Position numbers and translations under genes: made by a program | In this document: piece by piece, positions 15,842 to 53,644 of the stretch | Layout of the letters: each line of letters starts with the position of its first letter | Position numbering within the stretch: position 1 is the stretch's first letter | The notes under the pieces: model-generated | Seen by the model: the letters and a program-made list of their open reading frames with translations, nothing else | The model's database searches: none | Told to the model about the DNA's origin: nothing | Source: Escherichia coli | GTDB lineage: Bacteria > Pseudomonadota > Gammaproteobacteria > Enterobacterales > Enterobacteriaceae | DNA length: 64,000 bases | Direction: 5' to 3' (one strand) | Assembly (NCBI RefSeq): GCF_024223415.1 | Contig: NZ_CP100500.1

Positions 15842-15990
15842 GCCTTATACGGACAACACCACCCCGTAGGACGGATAAGGCGTTTACGCTGCATCCGGCA
15901 ACCTATGCCTGATGCGACGCTGAAGCGTCTTATCATGCCTACATAGCACTGCCACGTATGTTTACACCGCATCCGGCATAAAAACACGCG
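15842..15990. repeat. REP/BIME cluster
   Basis: Multiple GCCGGATGCGGCG / CGCATCCGGC-type palindromic units. Confidence 0.7.
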
Positions 15991-24095: not shown

Positions 24096-24425
24096 GAATA
24101 TTTTTTGGTAAGCGTCAAATATGCGCTTTCTGGCTGTGCGTAGCCGGAACCTGTGGGAGCACGATGCCGATAAGTGAAAGGCATCGTGCTATGAAGGAGG
24201 ATTCTATCGATGTGGTCAATGGAAGACGGTTACCAGAGATAGGGCTTATGCATAAAAAAATAAGCCCGTGTAAGGGAGATTACACAGGCTAAGGAGGTGG
24301 TTCCTGGTACAGCTAGCATTTTATGGGTTATGTTTTTCAGCGAAACGGATGATAACCTTAATAAATGCAGCTGTATGTGATCGGTTTCTAAGAATTTTCC
24401 ATCCGGGAAAAATAATCGAAATTAA

Positions 24426-37669: not shown

Positions 37670-37810
37670 AACGGGAAAGCCCCTCCCGAGGAAGGGGCCT
37701 TAAATAAGGAAAGGGTCATGATGAAGCTACTCATCATCGTGGTGCTCTTAGTGATTAGCTACCCAGCATACTAAGACTACCAGGGCGGGGGAAACCCCGC
37801 TCTACCCTCA
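37670..37810 (-). ncRNA. Sib-family antisense sRNA (antitoxin), copy 1, approximate bounds
   Basis: On minus strand: -35 TTGACA (rc of 37839-37844) and -10-like CATACT downstream of ibs stop; hairpin GCCCCTCCCGAGGAAGGGGC at 37679-37699 as terminator; bounds inferred. Confidence 0.45.
37718..37774 (+). CDS. Ibs-family type I toxin peptide (MMKLLIIVVLLVISYPAY)
   Basis: 18-codon hydrophobic ORF with AAGG RBS, below six-frame track length cutoff; resembles IbsA-E peptides. Confidence 0.7.
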   Translation: MMKLLIIVVLLVISYPAY

Positions 37811-37997
37811 CTCCTGAAAGTATGCCTTCACGATAAGATTGTCAATCCGCAGGATTTGCCGTCTGCGATCCTGCCAGCAAAAATTCTTTGCGAGACGTTA
37901 CGCAATAATCACACTGGAAACTATTTTATCTGCAAGTCAGCGATAGACTAAGTGCATGGCGAAAGGAGGTAAGCCGACGATTTCAGCGGGACGCTGA

Positions 37998-38138
37998 AAC
38001 GGGAAAGCCCCTCCCGAGGAAGGGGCCTTAAATAAGGAAAGGGTCATGATGAAGCTACTCATCATCGTGGTGCTCTTAGTCATAAGCTTCCCCGCTTACT
38101 AAGACTACCAGGGCGGGGGAAACCCCGCTCTACCCTCA
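37998..38138 (-). ncRNA. Sib-family antisense sRNA, copy 2, approximate bounds
   Basis: Same promoter and hairpin elements as copy 1 within repeat 2. Confidence 0.45.
38046..38102 (+). CDS. Ibs-family type I toxin peptide (MMKLLIIVVLLVISFPAY)
   Basis: Second repeat copy, 18-codon hydrophobic ORF. Confidence 0.7.
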   Translation: MMKLLIIVVLLVISFPAY

Positions 38139-38327
38139 CTCCTGAAAGTATGCCTTCACGATAAGATTGTCAATCCGCAGGCTTTGTAGTCTGCGATCCT
38201 GCCAGCAAATATTCTTTGCGAGTCGTTACGCAATAATCACAGAGGAAACTATTTTATTCACGCGTTAGCGATAGCCTGCATTCAGGGCGAAAGGAGGTAA
38301 GCCGATGATTTCAGCGGGACGCTGAAA

Positions 38328-38470
38328 CGGGAAAGCCTCTCCCGGAGAAGAGGGCTTTTAATAAGGAAAGGGTTATGATGAAGCACGTCATCATACTGGT
38401 GATACTCTTAGTGATTAGCTTCCAGGCTTACTAAGAACACCAGGGGGAGGGGGAAACCTCTCCCTAACCC
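38328..38470 (-). ncRNA. Sib-family antisense sRNA, copy 3, approximate bounds
   Basis: Divergent copy; hairpin AGCCTCTCCCGGAGAAGAGGGCTTT at about 38335-38358. Confidence 0.4.
38375..38434 (+). CDS. Ibs-family type I toxin peptide (MMKHVIILVILLVISFQAY)
   Basis: Third, more divergent repeat copy, 19-codon hydrophobic ORF. Confidence 0.7.
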   Translation: MMKHVIILVILLVISFQAY

Positions 38471-38654
38471 TCACTCCTGAAATTATGTCACTCCGCCCTT
38501 AGTGTCAATCGACGGCTCTCCGTTCTTGCGAGGCGAATAGCAAAATTTTCTGCGCCGCCGGGCCTAATTCTGAAAGTTTCTTCGTTTGCTCTTATTTCAT
38601 TATTGCAGTCGGTATGATACCGGACCTCAATAATTCTCTAAGAAAGGATTTCTT

Positions 38655-39314
38655 ATGAGCGAACAAATCACGTTTGCCACCAGCGATTTTGCCAGTAACC
38701 CGGAACCACGTTGCCCCTGCATTTTGCTGCTGGATGTTTCTAGCTCGATGAGCGGCAGACCCATTAATGAACTTAACGCCGGATTGGTTACCTTTCGCGA
38801 TGAGCTGCTTGCCGATTCGCTGGCCTTAAAAAGAGTGGAACTCGGTATTGTGACGTTCGGCCCGGTGCATGTGGAACAACCCTTTACCAGCGCCGCTAAC
38901 TTTTTCCCGCCCATCCTGTTTGCCCAGGGGGATACGCCAATGGGGGCCGCCATTACCAAAGCCCTGGATATGGTTGAAGAGAGGAAACGTGAGTACCGCG
39001 CAAATGGTATTTCGTATTATCGCCCGTGGATTTTCCTGATCACCGATGGCGCTCCAACCGATGAGTGGCAGGCTGCCGCCAACAAAGTGTTTCAGGGGGA
39101 AGAAGATAAGAAATTTGCCTTCTTTTCCATCGCTGTTCAGGGGGCGGATATGAAGACGCTGGCACAAATCAGCGTTCGTCAGCCTTTGCCTCTGCAAGGA
39201 TTACAATTCCGTGAACTGTTTAGCTGGTTATCCAGTTCGCTGCGTTCGGTTTCCCGCTCCACGCCGGGAACGGAAGTTGTGCTGGAAGCGCCAAAAGGCT
39301 GGACGTCAGTGTGA
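38655..39314 (+). CDS. yegL: von Willebrand factor A (vWA / TerY-like) domain protein
   Basis: 219 aa; MIDAS motif [11 protein letters not shown]; overlaps start of next gene. Confidence 0.85.
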
Positions 39315-40072
39315 GCTGGCGTCTGGTTTATGCATCCGCTGTTGGAACGTCGCACATTAGCGCTGATTTACCTTGTCAGGATGCCTGCCAGATGCAGGTT
39401 GCCTGGTTAAACGATCAGCAACCATTACTGGTGATGTTTCTTGCTGATGGTGCAGGCAGCGTCTCGCAGGGTGGCGAAGGCGCGATGCTCGCCGTCAATG
39501 AAGCGATGGCTTATATGTCGCAAAAAGTGCAGGGTGGGGAATTGGGGCTTAATGATATCCTCGCCACGGATATTGTGCTGACTATTCGTCAGCGACTTTT
39601 TGCCGAGGCGGAAGCCAAAGAATTAGCAGTTCGCGATTTTGCCTGCACGTTTCTGGGATTGATTTCATCGGCTAATGGCACCTTGATTATGCAGATTGGC
39701 GATGGCGGCGTGGTGGTGGATTTTGGTCACGGTCTGCAATTGCCGCTTACGCCGATGGTGGGTGAATATGACAATATGACGCACTTCATTACCGATGAAG
39801 ATGCCGTTTCCAGACTGGAAACTTTCACCAGCACTGAGCGTGTGCATAAAGTTGCAGCATTTACGGATGGTATCCAGCGACTGGCGTTAAATATGCTGGA
39901 TAATTCTCCTCATGTACCTTTCTTTACCCCGTTTTTCAATGGACTGGCGTCAGCAACGCAGGAACAACTCGATTTATTACCTGAATTGTTAAAGCAGTTT
40001 TTGTCCAGCCCGGCGGTAAACGAGCGTACGGATGATGATAAAACGTTGGCACTGGCGCTGTGGTTACCATGA
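39311..40072 (+). CDS. yegK: PP2C-family Ser/Thr protein phosphatase
   Basis: 253 aa; PP2C-like acidic metal-binding motifs ([14 protein letters not shown]); overlaps kinase start. Confidence 0.8.
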
Positions 40073-42009
40073 AACCCACTTTATATACTGCTACTGGTGA
40101 GTGCGTTACGCCAGGCCGTGAACTGGGCAAAGGCGGTGAAGGCGCGGTTTATGATATCAATGAGTTTGTCGATAGCGTCGCCAAGATTTATCACACGCCG
40201 CCACCCGCCTTAAAACAGGACAAACTTGCCTTTATGGCTGCGACAGCTGACGCGCAATTGTTGAATTATGTCGCCTGGCCGCAGGCAACGCTTCACGGTG
40301 GACGAGGCGGAAAAGTTATCGGTTTTATGATGCCAAAAGTTTCTGGTAAAGAACCGATTCATATGATCTATAGCCCGGCACATCGTCGTCAACGTTACCC
40401 TCATTGTGCGTGGGATTTTCTACTCTATGTTGCGCGCAATATTGCTTCATCTTTTGCTACGGTTCACGAGCACGGGCACGTCGTGGGTGACGTAAACCAG
40501 AACAGTTTTATGGTAGGTCGCGACAGCAAAGTGGTACTGATTGATAGCGACTCCTTTCAGATTAACGCCAATGGCACACTGCATTTATGCGAAGTCGGCG
40601 TGTCGCATTTTACGCCGCCAGAGCTACAAACCTTGTCGTCATTTGTCGGCTTTGAACGCACAGAAAATCACGATAATTTTGGCCTTGCGTTGCTGATTTT
40701 TCACGTCTTGTTTGGTGGCCGGCATCCTTATTCTGGTGTGCCGCTTATCTCTGATGCGGGTAATGCGCTGGAGACGGATATTACCCATTTCCGTTATGCC
40801 TACGCGTCAGATAATCAGCGACGTGGTTTAAAACCGCCGCCACGATCGATTCCGCTATCGATGTTACCGAGTGATGTTGAAGCCATGTTTCAGCAGGCAT
40901 TCACGGAAAGTGGCGTGGCAACCGGGCGTCCGACGGCTAAAGCGTGGGTAGCGGCACTTGATTCTCTGCGCCAACAGTTAAAGAAATGTCCCGTTTCGGC
41001 AATGCATGTTTATCCCGCTCATTTGACCGACTGCCCGTGGTGTGCGCTGGATAATCAAGGCGTTATCTATTTTATTGATCTCGGCGAAGAGGTCATTACC
41101 ACCGGCGGGGATTTTGTGCTGGCAAAAGTCTGGGCGATGGTGATGGCGTCAGTAGCACCGCCAGCATTGCAACTGCCATTACCCGATCATTTCCAACCGA
41201 CTGGCAGGCCGCTTCCTTTAGGCCTGTTACGGCGCGAATACATCATTCTGCTTGAGATCGCACTGTCAGCATTATCGCTGCTGCTTTGCGGCCTTCAGGC
41301 AGAACCGCGTTATATTATTTTGGTTCCTGTGCTGGCGGCTATCTGGATTATTGGCAGTCTGACAAGCAAAGCGTACAAAGCAGAAGTTCAGCAACGCCGT
41401 GAGGCATTTAATCGTGCGAAAATGGACTATGACCATTTAGTCCGCCAGATCCAGCAGGTAGGCGGCCTGGAAGGTTTTATCGCCAAACGGACGATGCTCG
41501 AAAAAATGAAGGACGAAATTCTCGGGTTACCGGAAGAAGAGAAACGCGCTCTGGCAGCACTTCATGACACTGCAAGGGAACGGCAGAAGCAGAAGTTTCT
41601 GGAGGGATTTTTTATTGATGTTGCCTCTATTCCCGGCGTTGGCCCTGCGCGTAAAGCGGCGTTACGGTCTTTTGGTATTGAAACAGCCGCAGATGTTACC
41701 CGTCGTGGCGTTAAGCAAGTGAAAGGGTTTGGCGACCATCTGACCCAGGCGGTTATCGACTGGAAAGCGAGCTGTGAACGCCGTTTTGTGTTCAGGCCGA
41801 ATGAAGCGATAACGCCAGCAGACAGACAAGCGGTAATGGCGAAAATGACCGCCAAACGACATCGGCTGGAATCGACGTTGACTGTCGGCGCGACAGAGTT
41901 GCAGCGATTCCGCCTTCATGCTCCAGCACGGACCATGCCGTTGATGGAACCTTTACGTCAGGCGGCAGAAAAACTGGCTCAGGCGCAGGCAGATTTAAGC
42001 CGCTGCTGA
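40060..42009 (+). CDS. yegI: Ser/Thr protein kinase-like protein with C-terminal helix-hairpin-helix region
   Basis: 649 aa; glycine-rich loop GKGGEGAVY, VAKIY lysine, HGHVVGDVNQNS catalytic loop, predicted TM segments, HhH-like GxG repeats near C-terminus. Confidence 0.85.
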   Translation: MVTMKPTLYTATGECVTPGRELGKGGEGAVYDINEFVDSVAKIYHTPPPALKQDKLAFMAATADAQLLNYVAWPQATLHGGRGGKVIGFMMPKVSGKEPIHMIYSPAHRRQRYPHCAWDFLLYVARNIASSFATVHEHGHVVGDVNQNSFMVGRDSKVVLIDSDSFQINANGTLHLCEVGVSHFTPPELQTLSSFVGFERTENHDNFGLALLIFHVLFGGRHPYSGVPLISDAGNALETDITHFRYAYASDNQRRGLKPPPRSIPLSMLPSDVEAMFQQAFTESGVATGRPTAKAWVAALDSLRQQLKKCPVSAMHVYPAHLTDCPWCALDNQGVIYFIDLGEEVITTGGDFVLAKVWAMVMASVAPPALQLPLPDHFQPTGRPLPLGLLRREYIILLEIALSALSLLLCGLQAEPRYIILVPVLAAIWIIGSLTSKAYKAEVQQRREAFNRAKMDYDHLVRQIQQVGGLEGFIAKRTMLEKMKDEILGLPEEEKRALAALHDTARERQKQKFLEGFFIDVASIPGVGPARKAALRSFGIETAADVTRRGVKQVKGFGDHLTQAVIDWKASCERRFVFRPNEAITPADRQAVMAKMTAKRHRLESTLTVGATELQRFRLHAPARTMPLMEPLRQAAEKLAQAQADLSRC

Positions 42010-43506: not shown

Positions 43507-44355
43507 ATGTATACCCTGAACTGGCAGCCGCCGTATGACTGGTCGTGGATGTTGGGATTTCTCGCCGCCCGTGCGGTGAGTGGTGTGGAAACGGTCGCTG
43601 AGGATTATTATGCCCGTAGTCTGGCGGTGGGCGAATATCGCGGCGTGGTGACTGCTATTCCGGATATAGCCCGCCATACTCTGCACATAAATTTAAGTGC
43701 AGGTTTAGAACCCGTTGCCGCTGAGTGTCTGGCGAAAATGAGCCGCCTGTTTGATCTGCAATGTAACCCGCAGATTGTTAACGGTGCGTTGGGCAAGTTA
43801 GGCGCGGCGCGGCCCGGATTGCGTTTACCCGGCTGTATTGATGCTTTTGAGCAGGGTGTGCGGGCGATTTTAGGCCAACTGGTGAGCGTGGCGATGGCGG
43901 CAAAATTGACTGCCAAAGTTGTACAGCTTTATGGCGAACGGCTGGATGATTTTCCGGAGTATATCTGCTTCCCCACGCCTCAGCGGCTGGCAGCAGCCGA
44001 CCCGCAGGCATTAAAAGCGTTAGGCATGCCGTTGAAACGGGCAGAGGCACTGATTCATCTGGCAAATGCGGCGCTGGAGGGCAGCTTACCAATGACAATT
44101 CCGGGCGATGTGGAGCAGGCGATGAAAACGCTGCAAACTTTTCCGGGTATCGGGCGCTGGACGGCGAATTATTTCGCTTTGCGTGGCTGGCAGGCGAAAG
44201 ATGTTTTTCTGCCGGATGATTATCTGATTAAACAGCGATTTCCGGGGATGACACCGGCACAAATCCGCCGTTATGCCGAGCGCTGGAAGCCCTGGCGTTC
44301 TTATGCGCTGTTGCATATCTGGTATACGGAAGGCTGGCAACCAGACGAAGCATGA
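43507..44355 (+). CDS. alkA: 3-methyladenine DNA glycosylase II
   Basis: 282 aa, recognised AlkA with HhH-GPD region. Confidence 0.95.
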   Translation: MYTLNWQPPYDWSWMLGFLAARAVSGVETVAEDYYARSLAVGEYRGVVTAIPDIARHTLHINLSAGLEPVAAECLAKMSRLFDLQCNPQIVNGALGKLGAARPGLRLPGCIDAFEQGVRAILGQLVSVAMAAKLTAKVVQLYGERLDDFPEYICFPTPQRLAAADPQALKALGMPLKRAEALIHLANAALEGSLPMTIPGDVEQAMKTLQTFPGIGRWTANYFALRGWQAKDVFLPDDYLIKQRFPGMTPAQIRRYAERWKPWRSYALLHIWYTEGWQPDEA

Positions 44356-44359
44356 CGTT

Positions 44360-44445
44360 GGTCGCCGGATGCGGTGCGAGCGCCTTATCCGGCCTGGGGA
44401 ATGAGCGATTTGTAGGCATGATAAGACGCGTTAGCGTCGCATCAG
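44360..44445. repeat. REP elements
   Basis: GCCGGATGCGG / GACGCATCAGGC-type palindromic units. Confidence 0.65.
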
Positions 44446-44463
44446 GCGATGGGGAAGCACGCC

Positions 44464-47400
44464 TCAGTTAATCGCGAAATAACTACTATTCACCAGCAAA
44501 TCCAGCGGTTGGGCATCGGCAATCACCTCACCATAAATCAGATCGACGCCGATGCCAGAAAGCGTATCCATCACTAAGGGTAAAACGACTGGCCCGGCGA
44601 TGGTTTTCATCCCGAGTCGCTGAGCGTGCCCCTGAATAATCGTAATCAGCATCTCATCCATCAAATTACCCTGCACGTTGGCGCATAACTCACCATCAAG
44701 TAGCAGGTAATCTGCCATATTCGCTTTCAGCGAGTTGAAGATTTGCAGATCGCGGCCCACCTGGCTGAGCACTATCCGACATCCCGCCAGCCGCAGTTTT
44801 TGCACGCTTTCTGCGTGATCTAAAATCGCTTCAGCCGGAATAATCAGATGTAATAACCGTGGTGGTAGAGGGCTATTTTCCAGCTGCTCAAGCAGATCAT
44901 TCACCAGCGTGGCGCTACTCAAACCGGCAACGGAAAGGGGGAGGGAGATGCTTATGCCTTTACTGGCAACCGCTTTTGCGGCCTGCTGGAAAAATTCGTG
45001 GAATACCCGGCGGTCAAGAGCATGGCTAAGCGCCGGATCGCTGAAGCTACGACGAAATGTTTGTTCATCAATAATCTCGCCTTCGCAACTCCAGAGCTTA
45101 AGTGAAATCAGCCACAAATTACGCGCTTCCGGGATCCGTGGCGAAGCGACACCGTGGGCGAGCATCATCAACTGATTCTCTTTAATCATCCGCCACTGTT
45201 CATCAAGCGACATCGCCGCCCGTTCGCTATGTGCGGCAGCTTGCTGCGGTTCGTAAACCGTCACCCGGCCCCGGCCACCATTTTTGGAGGCATAACAGGC
45301 GATATCAGCCTGCGACATCACTTCTGCCGCCTGATGATTGTTGTCATCAATCAAGGTAATCCCGGCACTGGCACCTACCCGATGCACACGGCCTTCCCAT
45401 ATAAAGTGATAGTCATTCACGGCACTGATAATGCGTGTAGCGATAAAACGCGCGCTTTCAACATTACAGTCTGGTAGCAGCAGACCAAATTCATCCCCAC
45501 CGAGTCGCGCCAGCACGTCGCTGGAACGCAGCATACTCAGCATTAACGACGCCAGTTCGCGCAGCAAAGCGTCACCCGCCGCATGCCCGGCGCTGTCATT
45601 CACCGCTTTAAAGCGATCAAGATCGATAAACACCAGGGCATGTCGCTGATGTGTACTGTTTACCGTTTGCAGCAGGATACGCAGTTGTTTCTCAAAACTG
45701 GCGCGGTTGGCGAGATGCGTCAGTGCATCATGGGAGGCGCTGTAGCTCAGCTGGCGCAGCATTTTGCGTGATTCGGTAACGTCCTGAATCACCAGAACCG
45801 AACCAATATTGCTGCCGTCCAGAGTACTTAACGGCGTAATACAGTAATGCACGTCGTAACTGCCGCCGCTCCGACAGTGCAACACCACATCTTGCTCGAT
45901 CGCGGAACGTGAGGTGTCGGCACTGTAAATGTTCTCCATTAATGGTCCGTTGTCGCCAAAAGTAATATGCAACACCGTCAGGAGCGGAACACCTAACGCT
46001 TCTTCCTGCGTCCAGCCGCTCATCTTCTCCGCCACTGGATTCATAAAGGTAATTTTCATCGCCATATCAATACAGACCACGGCTTCACCGATGGAATCAA
46101 GCGTAATGTGCAGGCGCTCTTTTTCCTGAAACAATGCCTCGTTAAGCTGTTTAACCTCAGTCATATCCATATTAATGCCGAGCAGGCGTTCGACTTCGCC
46201 TTCTTTATTCAGTACCCGGTTGGCGAGGGCGCGGATATGGCGGATGCCATCTTTCACGGCAATGCGAAATTCCAGCTTAAAGGGCGAGCGTGATTGCAAC
46301 GAATCACGAATCACTTTTTCGGCGTGTTGGCGATCTTCCGGCAATACACACTCGTACCACACCTGCCAGTTCGGTTTGATATGCGGAGGAATTTCATACA
46401 GCTCGAACATCCGCTTATCCCAGCTAAAAATATTCGGCTTCAACTCCCACTCCCAGATGCCAATCCCGCCCGCTTCGTTAGCCAGCGTGATGCGCTCCAT
46501 CAGTTGCTGATTGACCTGTTCGGTGCGTTTTAGCTCGTTAATGTCTTCAATCTGAGCGATAAAATAGAGCGGCGTGCCATCCGTGTGGCGCACCAGTGAG
46601 ACGGCAAGCAACGCCCAGACAACATCGCCATTGCGGTTGTAGTAGCGTTTTTCCATTGAATAGGTGTTTATTTCACCGCTTATCAGCTTTTCAACCTGTT
46701 GGAGATCTTTATTGAGATCCTCCGGCCAGGTCAGTTGCTGAAAGGTGAGTCCGCGCAGCTCTTCCTGACTGTACCCGAGAAACTGGCAGAGCGCTTTGTT
46801 GGTTTGCAGCCATTGTCCCTCGGTGCCCACTAACGCCATACCGATAGCGGAATATTCCATCGCGTTCCGAAAGTGGGTTTCGCTTTCGGAAATGTGTTTG
46901 CGTTCCGCACGAAAGGCATACATCACCATGGTCATGATGTTGGCGGGCAGCAGGATCAGCAAAAACGGTAGCCACGGCATATGGCTCATCAGGTACGTAC
47001 GCGGCGTAGCAAGCAGGGAGGGATCCGCGGCCATCATCAGCGACACCATCATCACCGTGGTAAGGAAGATCAAAAAGGCTTCCATTCGTGGCAGACGCAC
47101 GGCGCTCCACATCAACAGCACAATAATGAAAGTAAAAGGCCACGGCAGATACAGCATCGAAAGCCAGCTTAACGTCAGTGTGATGGCTAACGTGAGCAGC
47201 GACTCAAAAAGCAACCGTGGGTTGCGATGGCGCAGCAGATAGTGTGGTTTAAATAACAATCCCAGCGGCACCAGTGCCAGAGCGCCGATGGATTCTGACA
47301 GTACCCATATCAAAAATGCCCTGAGAGGATCGTCTCCGGGCGTCAGCAGGACAACCAGAACACCCCCCAACAGAGGCGGAACAATGGCGCTGCCGAGTGC

Positions 47401-47781
47401 CAGACGCAGCCAGTCAGCCAGATTTTGCAAGGGGTTATACCACGGCAGCAATTTACGTAGCAGCACTGCCCCGACCACGGCTTCAACAATATTGATGGTC
47501 GTCCAGGTCATGTTCAGCGAGCTGGTGGAAAAAAGCAGGATGGATGCGGCGATATTTCCCAGCGAACAGCTCAGCGCAATTCCCGGCCACATGCGCCCGG
47601 CATGGCGATAAAACGCCACCATCATGATGGACGTCGGGAACCACAGTGGGGCGAGTTGGGTGCCAAACTGCGAAAGCTCAAGCGAGAAAAGGGTAAAGAT
47701 AAACGAGACTAAACCTAAACTGACCAGGTGAAGCAGCGGGTGGGGCAGGGCAATTAATACATGCTGTGATTGTTTGCTCAT
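44464..47781 (-). CDS. dgcE: multidomain diguanylate cyclase (MASE1 - PAS - GGDEF - EAL)
   Basis: 1105 aa; N-terminal polytopic domain, PAS region, GGDEF motif (RLGGDEFGLL), C-terminal EAL-like domain. Confidence 0.9.
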   Translation of the reverse strand: MSKQSQHVLIALPHPLLHLVSLGLVSFIFTLFSLELSQFGTQLAPLWFPTSIMMVAFYRHAGRMWPGIALSCSLGNIAASILLFSTSSLNMTWTTINIVEAVVGAVLLRKLLPWYNPLQNLADWLRLALGSAIVPPLLGGVLVVLLTPGDDPLRAFLIWVLSESIGALALVPLGLLFKPHYLLRHRNPRLLFESLLTLAITLTLSWLSMLYLPWPFTFIIVLLMWSAVRLPRMEAFLIFLTTVMMVSLMMAADPSLLATPRTYLMSHMPWLPFLLILLPANIMTMVMYAFRAERKHISESETHFRNAMEYSAIGMALVGTEGQWLQTNKALCQFLGYSQEELRGLTFQQLTWPEDLNKDLQQVEKLISGEINTYSMEKRYYNRNGDVVWALLAVSLVRHTDGTPLYFIAQIEDINELKRTEQVNQQLMERITLANEAGGIGIWEWELKPNIFSWDKRMFELYEIPPHIKPNWQVWYECVLPEDRQHAEKVIRDSLQSRSPFKLEFRIAVKDGIRHIRALANRVLNKEGEVERLLGINMDMTEVKQLNEALFQEKERLHITLDSIGEAVVCIDMAMKITFMNPVAEKMSGWTQEEALGVPLLTVLHITFGDNGPLMENIYSADTSRSAIEQDVVLHCRSGGSYDVHYCITPLSTLDGSNIGSVLVIQDVTESRKMLRQLSYSASHDALTHLANRASFEKQLRILLQTVNSTHQRHALVFIDLDRFKAVNDSAGHAAGDALLRELASLMLSMLRSSDVLARLGGDEFGLLLPDCNVESARFIATRIISAVNDYHFIWEGRVHRVGASAGITLIDDNNHQAAEVMSQADIACYASKNGGRGRVTVYEPQQAAAHSERAAMSLDEQWRMIKENQLMMLAHGVASPRIPEARNLWLISLKLWSCEGEIIDEQTFRRSFSDPALSHALDRRVFHEFFQQAAKAVASKGISISLPLSVAGLSSATLVNDLLEQLENSPLPPRLLHLIIPAEAILDHAESVQKLRLAGCRIVLSQVGRDLQIFNSLKANMADYLLLDGELCANVQGNLMDEMLITIIQGHAQRLGMKTIAGPVVLPLVMDTLSGIGVDLIYGEVIADAQPLDLLVNSSYFAIN

Positions 47782-48098
47782 TACCGCTTTATCCGCAAGA
47801 CCTGGTCGCCAGTATTCGTTTCTGTGTTTATGCTAGTACAAAAGTTTTACATTTTATATGCGAATTGCTCATAAAGTGACGTAAAGGCGGATAATTTGCG
47901 CAACTGCGTATAACATTTTTTACCTTACATAAAACTGATCAACGTAATTTGCCCCCGGGAATTCTTTGTCAACAATTAACTCTGAGCGCGCGGCAACGCT
48001 ATTCGACTGGTATCAGACGGATGAAATCCCTATAATTGCCGCGTTTGGCGCTTCGTCGCCCCCTTCCTAACATCCAGGTTAATCAGGTCGCTAAATAT

Positions 48099-48740
48099 AT
48101 GACTGATCAGTCTCATCAGTGCGTCATTATCGGTATCGCTGGCGCATCGGCTTCCGGCAAGAGTCTTATTGCCAGTACCCTTTATCGTGAATTGCGTGAG
48201 CAAGTCGGTGATGAACACATCGGCGTAATTCCCGAAGACTGCTATTACAAAGATCAAAGCCATCTGTCGATGGAAGAACGCGTTAAGACCAACTACGACC
48301 ATCCCAGCGCGATGGATCACAGTCTGCTGCTTGAGCATTTACAAGCGTTGAAACGCGGCTCGGCAATTGACCTGCCGGTTTACAGCTATGTTGAACATAC
48401 GCGTATGAAAGAAACGGTGACGGTTGAGCCGAAGAAGGTCATCATTCTCGAAGGCATTTTGTTGCTGACGGATGCGCGTTTGCGTGACGAACTTAACTTC
48501 TCCATTTTCGTTGATACCCCGCTGGATATCTGCCTGATGCGCCGCATCAAGCGTGACGTTAACGAGCGTGGGCGTTCAATGGATTCAGTGATGGCGCAAT
48601 ATCAAAAAACCGTGCGCCCGATGTTCCTGCAATTCATTGAGCCTTCTAAACAATATGCGGACATTATCGTGCCGCGCGGCGGGAAAAACCGCATCGCGAT
48701 CGATATATTGAAAGCGAAAATAAGTCAGTTCTTTGAATAA
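48099..48740 (+). CDS. udk: uridine/cytidine kinase
   Basis: Start at [22 protein letters not shown] (213 aa, P-loop). Confidence 0.95.
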
Positions 48741-53164: not shown

Positions 53165-53632
53165 AGTAAGTACAAAACCTATTCGTTGTATGACAAATGT
53201 CACAATTCGATCATGGATAAATCGGGGCAAAAATGCAATGTTGCAGCACTATTTATCTCATATTATTTGAGGGTAATAACCTCACATTATCCCTGAATTA
53301 AAAGTGGTAATAATAAAACATTATTTAAGAAATATCGCATGTGGAGGCGCAATATTAAATATTGTCAACCTAAAGAAACTCCTAAAAACCATATTGAATG
53401 ACACTTAATATAATTCTTAAAAATAGCCAATTGCCGAATTGTTACCTTGCCTGCTATTCCGTTAGCTGTAACACTTCCTCCTGCATTATTGGAGAGCCAA
53501 TATTCAATTACCATAATGTCACCTTATATTCGGAAGTTAATTTCCGCAATAACCCTTTCTCATCAACGATTGTATGCAGAGAGGGTTTGAAAAATTAAGC
53601 TAAATCAGTGTATTGGTAGCTAAAAAGCCAGG

Positions 53633-53644
53633 GGCGGTAGCGTG
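53633..53644 (+). promoter_or_regulatory. ops element (GGCGGTAGCGTG) / JUMPstart, RfaH recruitment site in cps leader
   Basis: Exact ops consensus in long AT-rich leader about 180 bp upstream of wza. Confidence 0.75.

What the first reader, a model, noticed from the sequence alone, without database searches (positions are those of the whole stretch)
44464..47781. dgcE: very large MASE1-PAS-GGDEF-EAL signalling protein
Known multidomain c-di-GMP enzyme; noted because the long N-terminal membrane and PAS region has no defined ligand. Ordinary conserved gene.
Basis: established knowledge. Interest (0 to 1): 0.2.

Follow-up and report, generated by a model that had tools for sequence, protein, structure and literature searches.

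The report
Intact E. coli dgcE diguanylate cyclase gene
This is the ordinary, intact copy of dgcE, the well-studied main enzyme that makes the biofilm signal c-di-GMP in E. coli; the only extra is a computed hint that its membrane sensor domain is built like a vitamin-binding transporter subunit.

The parts
44464..47781 (-). dgcE coding sequence, 1105 codons plus stop, intact
   Evidence: ORF list and translation. NF007298 equivalog 2069 bits. 100% DNA identity to annotated dgcE. 1103/1105 aa identical to K-12 b2067.
46900..47727 (-). MASE1 membrane domain (aa 19-294): ten predicted helices, docking site for RdcA, needed for activity and for proteolytic turnover in K-12
   Evidence: Pfam PF05231, 124-129 bits. 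AF2 model pLDDT 91.7, pTM 0.90, 10 long helices. Function from PMC6510439.
47254..47739 (-). MASE1 helices 1-6 (aa 15-176): predicted six-helix bundle resembling ECF-transporter S-components. Conserved W47, N97, E100, W159 and E163 lie here.
46540..46875 (-). PAS1 (aa 303-414)
   Evidence: Pfam PAS/PAS_9/PAS_3. Only marginal PDB sequence hits.
46171..46428 (-). PAS2 (aa 452-537). Contains the T508A difference from K-12 (window base 46260).
   Evidence: Pfam PAS_3. PDB hits 3mr0 and FixL 8js5. SNP.
45766..46101 (-). PAS3 (aa 561-672). Contains S647C (window base 45843), a minority allele.
   Evidence: Pfam PAS_4. Best PDB relative is the RbdA PAS, 5xgb. The Cys allele is in 73 of 5426 genomes and the Ser allele in at least 5032.
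45268..45738 (-). GGDEF diguanylate cyclase domain (aa 682-838), with GGDEF at 761-765 (45487-45501) and the RxxD I-site RSSD at 752-755 (45517-45528)
   Evidence: Pfam PF00990, 155.7 bits. Motifs located and invariant in the five other intact alleles compared (K-12 plus four). D763A/E764A abolishes function in K-12.
44518..45090 (-). Degenerate EAL domain (aa 898-1088), inhibitory and not catalytic
   Evidence: Partial Pfam EAL match, profile positions 39-234. Alignment to RbdA shows the catalytic residues replaced: the EAL-motif Glu aligns to a gap before I892, N->P948, the ExxE Glu residues align to a gap and P982, DD->S1006/Q1007, K->L1027, E..E->G1063/V1066, Q->Y1083. Role from PMC6510439.
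47782..48098 (.). 317-bp divergent udk-dgcE intergenic region holding the dgcE promoter and 5' UTR
   Evidence: Differs from K-12 at one base, -129 A->T. No strong sigma-70 consensus on the gene strand, which fits the reported sigma-S control.
44356..44463 (.). 108-bp dgcE-alkA convergent spacer: an inverted pair of REP-like elements forming a long hairpin, a likely transcript end or stabiliser
   Evidence: RNA fold -42.3 kcal/mol, z -3.84. Weak naRNA4/REP hits. Identical to K-12.

Best explanation
The feature is the intact chromosomal dgcE (formerly yegE) gene of E. coli, encoding the organism's main diguanylate cyclase. Shown here: the protein has a ten-helix MASE1 membrane domain, three cytoplasmic PAS domains, a GGDEF domain with an intact active site and inhibitory I-site, and an EAL domain that has lost its catalytic residues. 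Inferred from K-12 genetics, on 99.8% identity: the gene is under sigma-S control and is induced further in the post-exponential phase. The dynamin-like GTPase RdcA, with RdcB, docks on MASE1 and, dependent on its GTP hydrolysis, promotes alignment and dimerisation of the PAS and GGDEF domains so that two GTP are joined into c-di-GMP. The dead EAL domain counteracts oligomer formation. A membrane-associated protease degrades the protein continuously from the N-terminus. The c-di-GMP triggers the PdeR-DgcM-MlrA module and so csgD, curli and pEtN-cellulose production. Activity also rises when membrane potential falls. My added inference: MASE1 helices 1-6 form an ordered bundle like an ECF S-component, and mid-membrane E100 and E163 are candidate sites where a proton or small ligand could be sensed.
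Against: Nothing argues against the gene identity. Function is transferred from K-12, not measured in this strain. The partners rdcA and rdcB lie outside the window, so their presence is unchecked. The rare S647C change in PAS3 has unknown effect. The S-component reading rests on predicted models only. Foldseek found no significant PDB match. Profile comparison with E. coli BtsS and MreD was not significant. The 2019 paper argues that MASE1 is relatively disordered.
Confidence: 0.96

Rival explanations
1. The gene is a silently inactivated or altered-function allele. The two substitutions relative to K-12 (T508A in PAS2, S647C in PAS3) would disable or rewire signalling although the reading frame is intact.
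For: S647C is rare: 73 of 5426 genomes, against at least 5032 with Ser. The PAS region is required for activity and dimerisation in K-12. dgcE is lost in some lineages: frameshifted in O157:H7 F7386 and IS1-truncated in strain 35.
Against: A508 is shared with two of the five other intact alleles compared. C647 is carried by 73 genomes from varied hosts, so it persists in nature. Neither change touches a catalytic or I-site residue. The synonymous:nonsynonymous ratio indicates continued purifying selection.
Confidence: 0.03
2. The protein is a bifunctional cyclase/phosphodiesterase, with the C-terminal EAL domain hydrolysing c-di-GMP as in RbdA or MorA.
For: Pfam EAL hit above the gathering score (76 bits against 31.3). 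The nearest solved relative, RbdA (PA0861, 5xgb), has the same PAS-GGDEF-EAL layout.
Against: The Pfam match misses the N-terminal part of the profile that holds the EAL motif. All residues aligned to RbdA's catalytic E, N, ExxE, DD, K, E..E and Q are replaced. Deleting the domain in K-12 raises output by a non-enzymatic route. The other sequence-similar EAL domains are FimX-type degenerate domains.
Confidence: 0.01
3. MASE1 is only a loosely folded membrane anchor. It would serve as an RdcA docking surface and as an entry point for quality-control proteases, with no ligand or proton site of its own. The S-component resemblance would then be a generic helical-bundle coincidence or an AlphaFold artefact.
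For: The 2019 study notes many Gly and Pro residues in the helices and rapid turnover. Replacing MASE1 with two LacY helices still allows degradation. G+P make up 11.5% of residues 1-295. There is no significant sequence link to S-components, BtsS or MreD. Foldseek found nothing.
Confidence: 0.35

Closest known systems
E. coli K-12 DgcE (YegE, b2067), NCBIfam NF007298
   Same: Same gene. 1103/1105 residues identical, same length and same neighbours. The upstream region differs by one base and the downstream spacer is identical.
   Different: T508A (PAS2) and S647C (PAS3). The Cys allele is found in only 73 of 5426 complete genomes.
Pseudomonas aeruginosa RbdA (PA0861; PDB 5xgb), PAS-GGDEF-EAL
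   Same: Closest solved structure for residues 545-1090 (E 2.5e-74), with the same PAS-GGDEF-EAL order.
   Different: The residues of RbdA's EAL catalytic motifs are replaced in this protein. The 5xgb construct has no MASE1 domain and only one PAS.
Other E. coli MASE1 proteins (PdeA, PdeF) and MASE1 sensor kinases
   Same: Same N-terminal Pfam MASE1 domain. PdeA shows a similar proteolytic ladder (PMC6510439). Relatives found here carry MASE1 in front of kinase, SpoIIE, HD, EAL or GGDEF outputs.
   Different: PdeA and PdeF are MASE1-GGDEF(degenerate)-EAL phosphodiesterases, whereas DgcE is the reverse: active GGDEF and dead EAL.
ECF-transporter S-components (RibU, ThiT, FolT, BioY, BtuM, CbiM) and the S-component-fold receptors 5TMR-LYT (BtsS/YpdA) and MreD
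   Different: No significant sequence similarity. Helix 1 has no AxxxA motif (sequence). Four extra C-terminal helices are present, instead of the extra N-terminal helix H0 of 5TMR-LYT. No ligand is known. MASE1 is not mentioned in that paper or in its held supplements.

Membership tests
DgcE orthologue group (NCBIfam NF007298, equivalog) | Full-length match above the curated cutoff | tested here: met
   2069.4 bits against a cutoff of 1135, residues 1-1105 on profile positions 1-1111
DgcE orthologue group (NCBIfam NF007298, equivalog) | Near-identity to the experimentally studied K-12 protein, in conserved chromosomal context (asmA-dcd-udk / dgcE / alkA / yegD) | tested here: met
   1103/1105 identical. 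Same neighbours in the window, in 14EC007 and in K-12.
GGDEF diguanylate cyclases (PF00990) | Intact GG(D/E)EF active-site motif | tested here: met
   GGDEF at 761-765. Pfam 155.7 bits.
GGDEF diguanylate cyclases (PF00990) | RxxD allosteric I-site five residues upstream of the A-site | tested here: met
   RSSD at 752-755, followed by VLARL and then GGDEF
GGDEF diguanylate cyclases (PF00990) | c-di-GMP synthesis from GTP | not testable with these tools
   Shown genetically for K-12 DgcE: the GGAAF mutant behaves as a null. Inferred here from identity.
EAL c-di-GMP phosphodiesterases (PF00563) | Catalytic and metal-binding residues: the Glu of the EAL motif, Asn, ExxE, DD, Lys, E..E and Gln | tested here: not met
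   Aligned to RbdA: gap/I892, P948, gap/P982, S1006/Q1007, L1027, G1063/V1066, Y1083. The Pfam match starts only at profile position 39. The fold is retained and the enzyme function lost.
MASE1 (PF05231) | Pfam match above the gathering score across the N-terminal roughly 300-aa hydrophobic region | tested here: met
   124-129 bits against 29.8, residues 19-294 on profile positions 2-298. Ten helices in the AF2 model, as proposed in PMC6510439.
PAS sensor domains | Three PAS folds between the membrane domain and GGDEF | tested here: met
   Separate Pfam hits for fragments 296-425, 426-552 and 553-685. TIGR00229 matches three stretches.
PAS sensor domains | Recognisable cofactor or ligand class (haem, flavin, etc.) | tested here: inconclusive
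   PDB sequence hits to LOV kinase and DosP are only at E 4e-4 to 1e-2. The best specific hits are uncharacterised PAS domains and RbdA. No residue-level test was done.
ECF-transporter S-component fold | Six-helix membrane bundle superposable on solved S-components | tested here: met
ECF-transporter S-component fold | Detectable sequence or profile homology to S-components or to known S-fold receptors | tested here: inconclusive
   hhalign of the MASE1 profile against BtsS gave probability 1.2% and against MreD 0.2%. One of the 42 domains hit Pfam QueT at E 1.2e-4, but this did not reappear in full-length scans of 39 of the 41 relatives, P0001 and P0003 not being rescanned at that threshold. 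S-components themselves share only about 15% identity.
ECF-transporter S-component (as a working transporter subunit) | AxxxA motif in helix 1, associated with docking on the ECF module | tested here: not met
   Helix 1 (aa 15-38, PLLHLVSLGLVSFIFTLFSLELSQ) contains no alanine. The motif's role is taken from the heading of section 10 of PMC11109136. So this is at most a receptor-type relative, not a transporter.

The most novel reading that the evidence does not exclude
MASE1, a widespread bacterial membrane input domain whose signal is still undefined, would be a derived ECF S-component-type six-helix module (helices 1-6) with four added helices. In this reading DgcE is a 'transceptor' relative. 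Its conserved mid-membrane polar cluster (W47, N97, E100, W159, E163) would bind a small ligand or titrate with the proton-motive force. That would give a physical basis for the unexplained membrane-potential dependence of DgcE and for signal perception in MASE1 kinases and phosphodiesterases in general.
Probability: 0.2. Interest if true: 0.6.

Novelty: already known. Interest (0 to 1): 0.15.

Why it matters
As a genome feature it matters little. It is a core E. coli gene, correctly named, intact and almost identical to the laboratory reference. Its product sits at the top of the c-di-GMP cascade that switches on curli and cellulose biofilm matrix, so an intact copy implies that this strain keeps that switch, unlike lineages where dgcE is frameshifted or cut by IS1. 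The open question is how the MASE1 and PAS region perceives signals. The predicted S-component-like architecture of MASE1 gives specific residues to mutate and would tie in with the recently reported membrane-potential control. That is a property of the whole domain family and not of this locus.

Tried and rejected
(1) Pseudogene or variant allele: rejected. The frame is intact, the motifs are intact and the synonymous:nonsynonymous ratio shows purifying selection.

(2) Active EAL phosphodiesterase: rejected on a residue-by-residue alignment to RbdA.

(3) Hidden RNA elements in or beside the gene: a permissive Rfam scan of 44300-48150 gave only weak REP/naRNA4 hits in the downstream spacer. 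The gathering-level scan found nothing in the gene.

(4) Promoter and terminator consensus scan: no sigma-70-like site on the gene strand upstream and no more sites than in shuffles. No promoter was mapped.

(5) Cofactor class of the PAS domains from PDB sequence neighbours: uninformative.

(6) A solved MASE1 structure by sequence: none, even at E <= 10.

(8) Sequence-level support for the S-component link: hhalign against BtsS and MreD was not significant. The single QueT hit was not recovered in four further Pfam calls, which covered 39 of the 41 relatives, so it is not used as evidence.

(9) Literature: no paper in the searchable library links MASE1 to the S-component fold. I could not check Pfam clan or InterPro groupings, which may already record the link.

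Full report
**Observation.** Window 44464..47781 holds a single ATG-to-stop ORF of 1105 codons on the minus strand. Composition is unremarkable for the region, at about 50-55% G+C. Pfam places MASE1 at residues 19-294, GGDEF at 682-838 (155.7 bits) and a partial EAL match at 898-1088 covering profile positions 39-234 only. Scanning the linker in three pieces resolves three PAS domains, at about 303-414, 452-537 and 561-672. The NCBIfam equivalog model NF007298 matches residues 1-1105 at 2069 bits against a curated cutoff of 1135.

**Identity.** The DNA is 100% identical to genes annotated dgcE in many complete E. coli genomes. 5416 of 5426 complete genomes carry a match, and 5400 of them cover at least 80% of the query. 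In strain 14EC007 and in K-12 MG1655 the neighbours are the same as in the window: asmA, dcd and udk lie upstream and divergent, alkA lies downstream and convergent, followed by yegD. The protein is 1103/1105 identical to K-12 DgcE (b2067), differing by T508A in PAS2 and S647C in PAS3. At the DNA level there are 20 differences, 18 in synonymous codons. Against more distant alleles the counts are 33-95 synonymous and 11-23 nonsynonymous codons, which indicates clear purifying selection. The 317-bp upstream intergenic region differs from K-12 at one base, and the 108-bp downstream spacer is identical.

**Allele details.** A508 is shared with two of the five other intact alleles compared (K-12 plus four from the spread list). 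C647 is shared with none of them. A 41-nt probe centred on that SNP, in which every 28-mer seed must span the SNP, finds the Cys codon in 73 of 5426 genomes. The Ser version is found in at least 5032. S647C is therefore a minority natural polymorphism in PAS3. Its effect is unknown, and it touches no catalytic residue. By contrast, dgcE is frameshifted in O157:H7 strain F7386, with a stop at codon 178, and is truncated by IS1 in strain 35. The window copy is intact.

**Residues that the mechanism depends on.** GGDEF lies at 761-765. An RxxD I-site (RSSD, 752-755) sits five residues upstream of it. Both are invariant in all the intact alleles compared. The D763A/E764A mutant of K-12 behaves as a null (PMC6510439). 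The EAL domain, aligned to the PAS-GGDEF-EAL protein RbdA (5xgb), has lost the catalytic set. The Glu of the EAL motif falls in a gap before I892. Asn becomes P948. The ExxE glutamates align to a gap and to P982. DD becomes S1006/Q1007, Lys becomes L1027, the two later Glu become G1063 and V1066, and Gln becomes Y1083. This agrees with the published statement that the domain lacks all key residues. The protein is a cyclase only.

**How it works (literature on the K-12 protein, transferred by 99.8% identity).** DgcE is the top-level trigger for matrix production, and its c-di-GMP acts on the PdeR-DgcM-MlrA/csgD module. MASE1 and the PAS region are both essential for activity. The PAS region dimerises. 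The dead EAL domain is inhibitory and counteracts oligomer formation. [quoted passage not shown] DgcE is degraded rapidly and processively from the N-terminus. This requires membrane localisation, and the protease is still unidentified (PMC12974527). A 2026 genome-wide screen recovered dgcE, rdcA, rdcB and ynjH as mutants with reduced c-di-GMP. [quoted passage not shown] So 'no defined ligand' is correct for small molecules. The 2019 authors explicitly leave PAS ligands open. A protein input and a physical input are nevertheless defined. The partner genes lie outside the window and could not be checked.

**PAS domains.** Compared separately with PDB sequences, none of the three is close to a PAS with a known cofactor. 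PAS1 gives a structural-genomics sensor at E 3.6e-6, with LOV kinase and DosP at E 4e-4 to 1e-2. PAS2 matches 3mr0 and a FixL PAS, and PAS3 matches the RbdA PAS. No ligand class can be inferred from this.

**Limits of the lead.** It rests on predicted models. Profile comparison of the MASE1 alignment with E. coli BtsS and MreD, two proteins described as S-component-fold, is not significant (probability 1.2% and 0.2%). One of the 42 domains hit Pfam QueT, which to my knowledge is an ECF S-component family, at E 1.2e-4. I could not recover that hit in full-length scans of 39 of the 41 relatives, so I do not count it. Helix 1 has no AxxxA motif, the feature associated with docking on an ECF module, so this is at most a receptor-type relative and not a transporter subunit. 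The link between the S-component fold and receptors is already published for 5TMR-LYT kinases and MreD (PMC11109136). That paper and its held supplements do not mention MASE1. No paper in the searchable library connects the two. Curated domain databases may already group them, and I could not check this. The same Pfam scans show MASE1 in front of histidine-kinase, SpoIIE-phosphatase, HD, EAL-only and GGDEF outputs, which is typical of a modular input domain.

**Flanks.** No sigma-70 consensus is found upstream on the gene strand, consistent with sigma-S dependence. I did not map a promoter. The dgcE-alkA spacer is an inverted pair of REP-like elements. It folds at -42.3 kcal/mol (z -3.84) and gives weak naRNA4/REP hits.

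**Verdict.** The feature is already known, and interest is low. The most novel reading the evidence leaves open is that MASE1 is an S-component-derived sensing module with a buried carboxylate site. I give this about 0.2 probability. It concerns the domain family, not this locus.

Noticed in passing
window 37703-38508 (-): Three Sib RNA/ibs toxin-antitoxin repeats (Rfam SIB_RNA, 141.6-149.5 bits) lie between mdtA and yegL, where K-12 has only two (sibA, sibB). Copy 3 is sibA-like, copy 2 is sibB-like, and copy 1 is an extra sibB-like copy with a few differences.
   Followed up: partly
window 39311-42009 (+): yegJ is absent. The yegI kinase ORF (40060-42009) overlaps the pphC phosphatase ORF (39311-40072) by 13 bases, as in strain 14EC007. 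K-12 has yegJ on the opposite strand between them.
   Followed up: partly
window 45843 (codon 647 of dgcE): The S647C substitution in PAS3 is a minority allele: 73 of 5426 complete E. coli genomes carry it, including O145 strain RM9872, against at least 5032 with Ser. A new cysteine in a PAS domain could matter for redox sensing or dimer contacts; this was not tested.
   Followed up: partly
window 44356-44463: The dgcE-alkA convergent spacer is an inverted pair of REP-like elements forming a -42.3 kcal/mol hairpin (z -3.84). It is identical to K-12. The alkA end lies closer to dgcE in strains 83972 and STS63-1-E, so the spacer varies in length between strains.
   Followed up: partly
L003 401-3719 (O157:H7 F7386); L008 4001-5128 (strain 35): dgcE is not universally intact. 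It is annotated as frameshifted in an O157:H7 genome, with the first stop at codon 178. In a bovine isolate it is truncated after the MASE1 region by an IS1 insertion that also removes most of alkA.
   Followed up: partly
window 24258-24343 (-), 15869-15939 (+), 53606-53644 (+): Rfam gathering-level hits elsewhere in the window: CyaR sRNA (100.7 bits), a naRNA4/REP325-type element (64.5 bits), and a JUMPstart element upstream of the wza colanic-acid genes (57.3 bits).
   Followed up: no
protein relatives P0006-P0057 (not in window): In the closest relatives of DgcE the EAL domain scores weakly and matches only part of the Pfam profile (46-101 bits). A more distant MASE1-PAS-GGDEF-EAL relative (P0057) has a full-scoring EAL (213.8 bits). 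This suggests EAL degeneration happened within the DgcE lineage.
   Followed up: no
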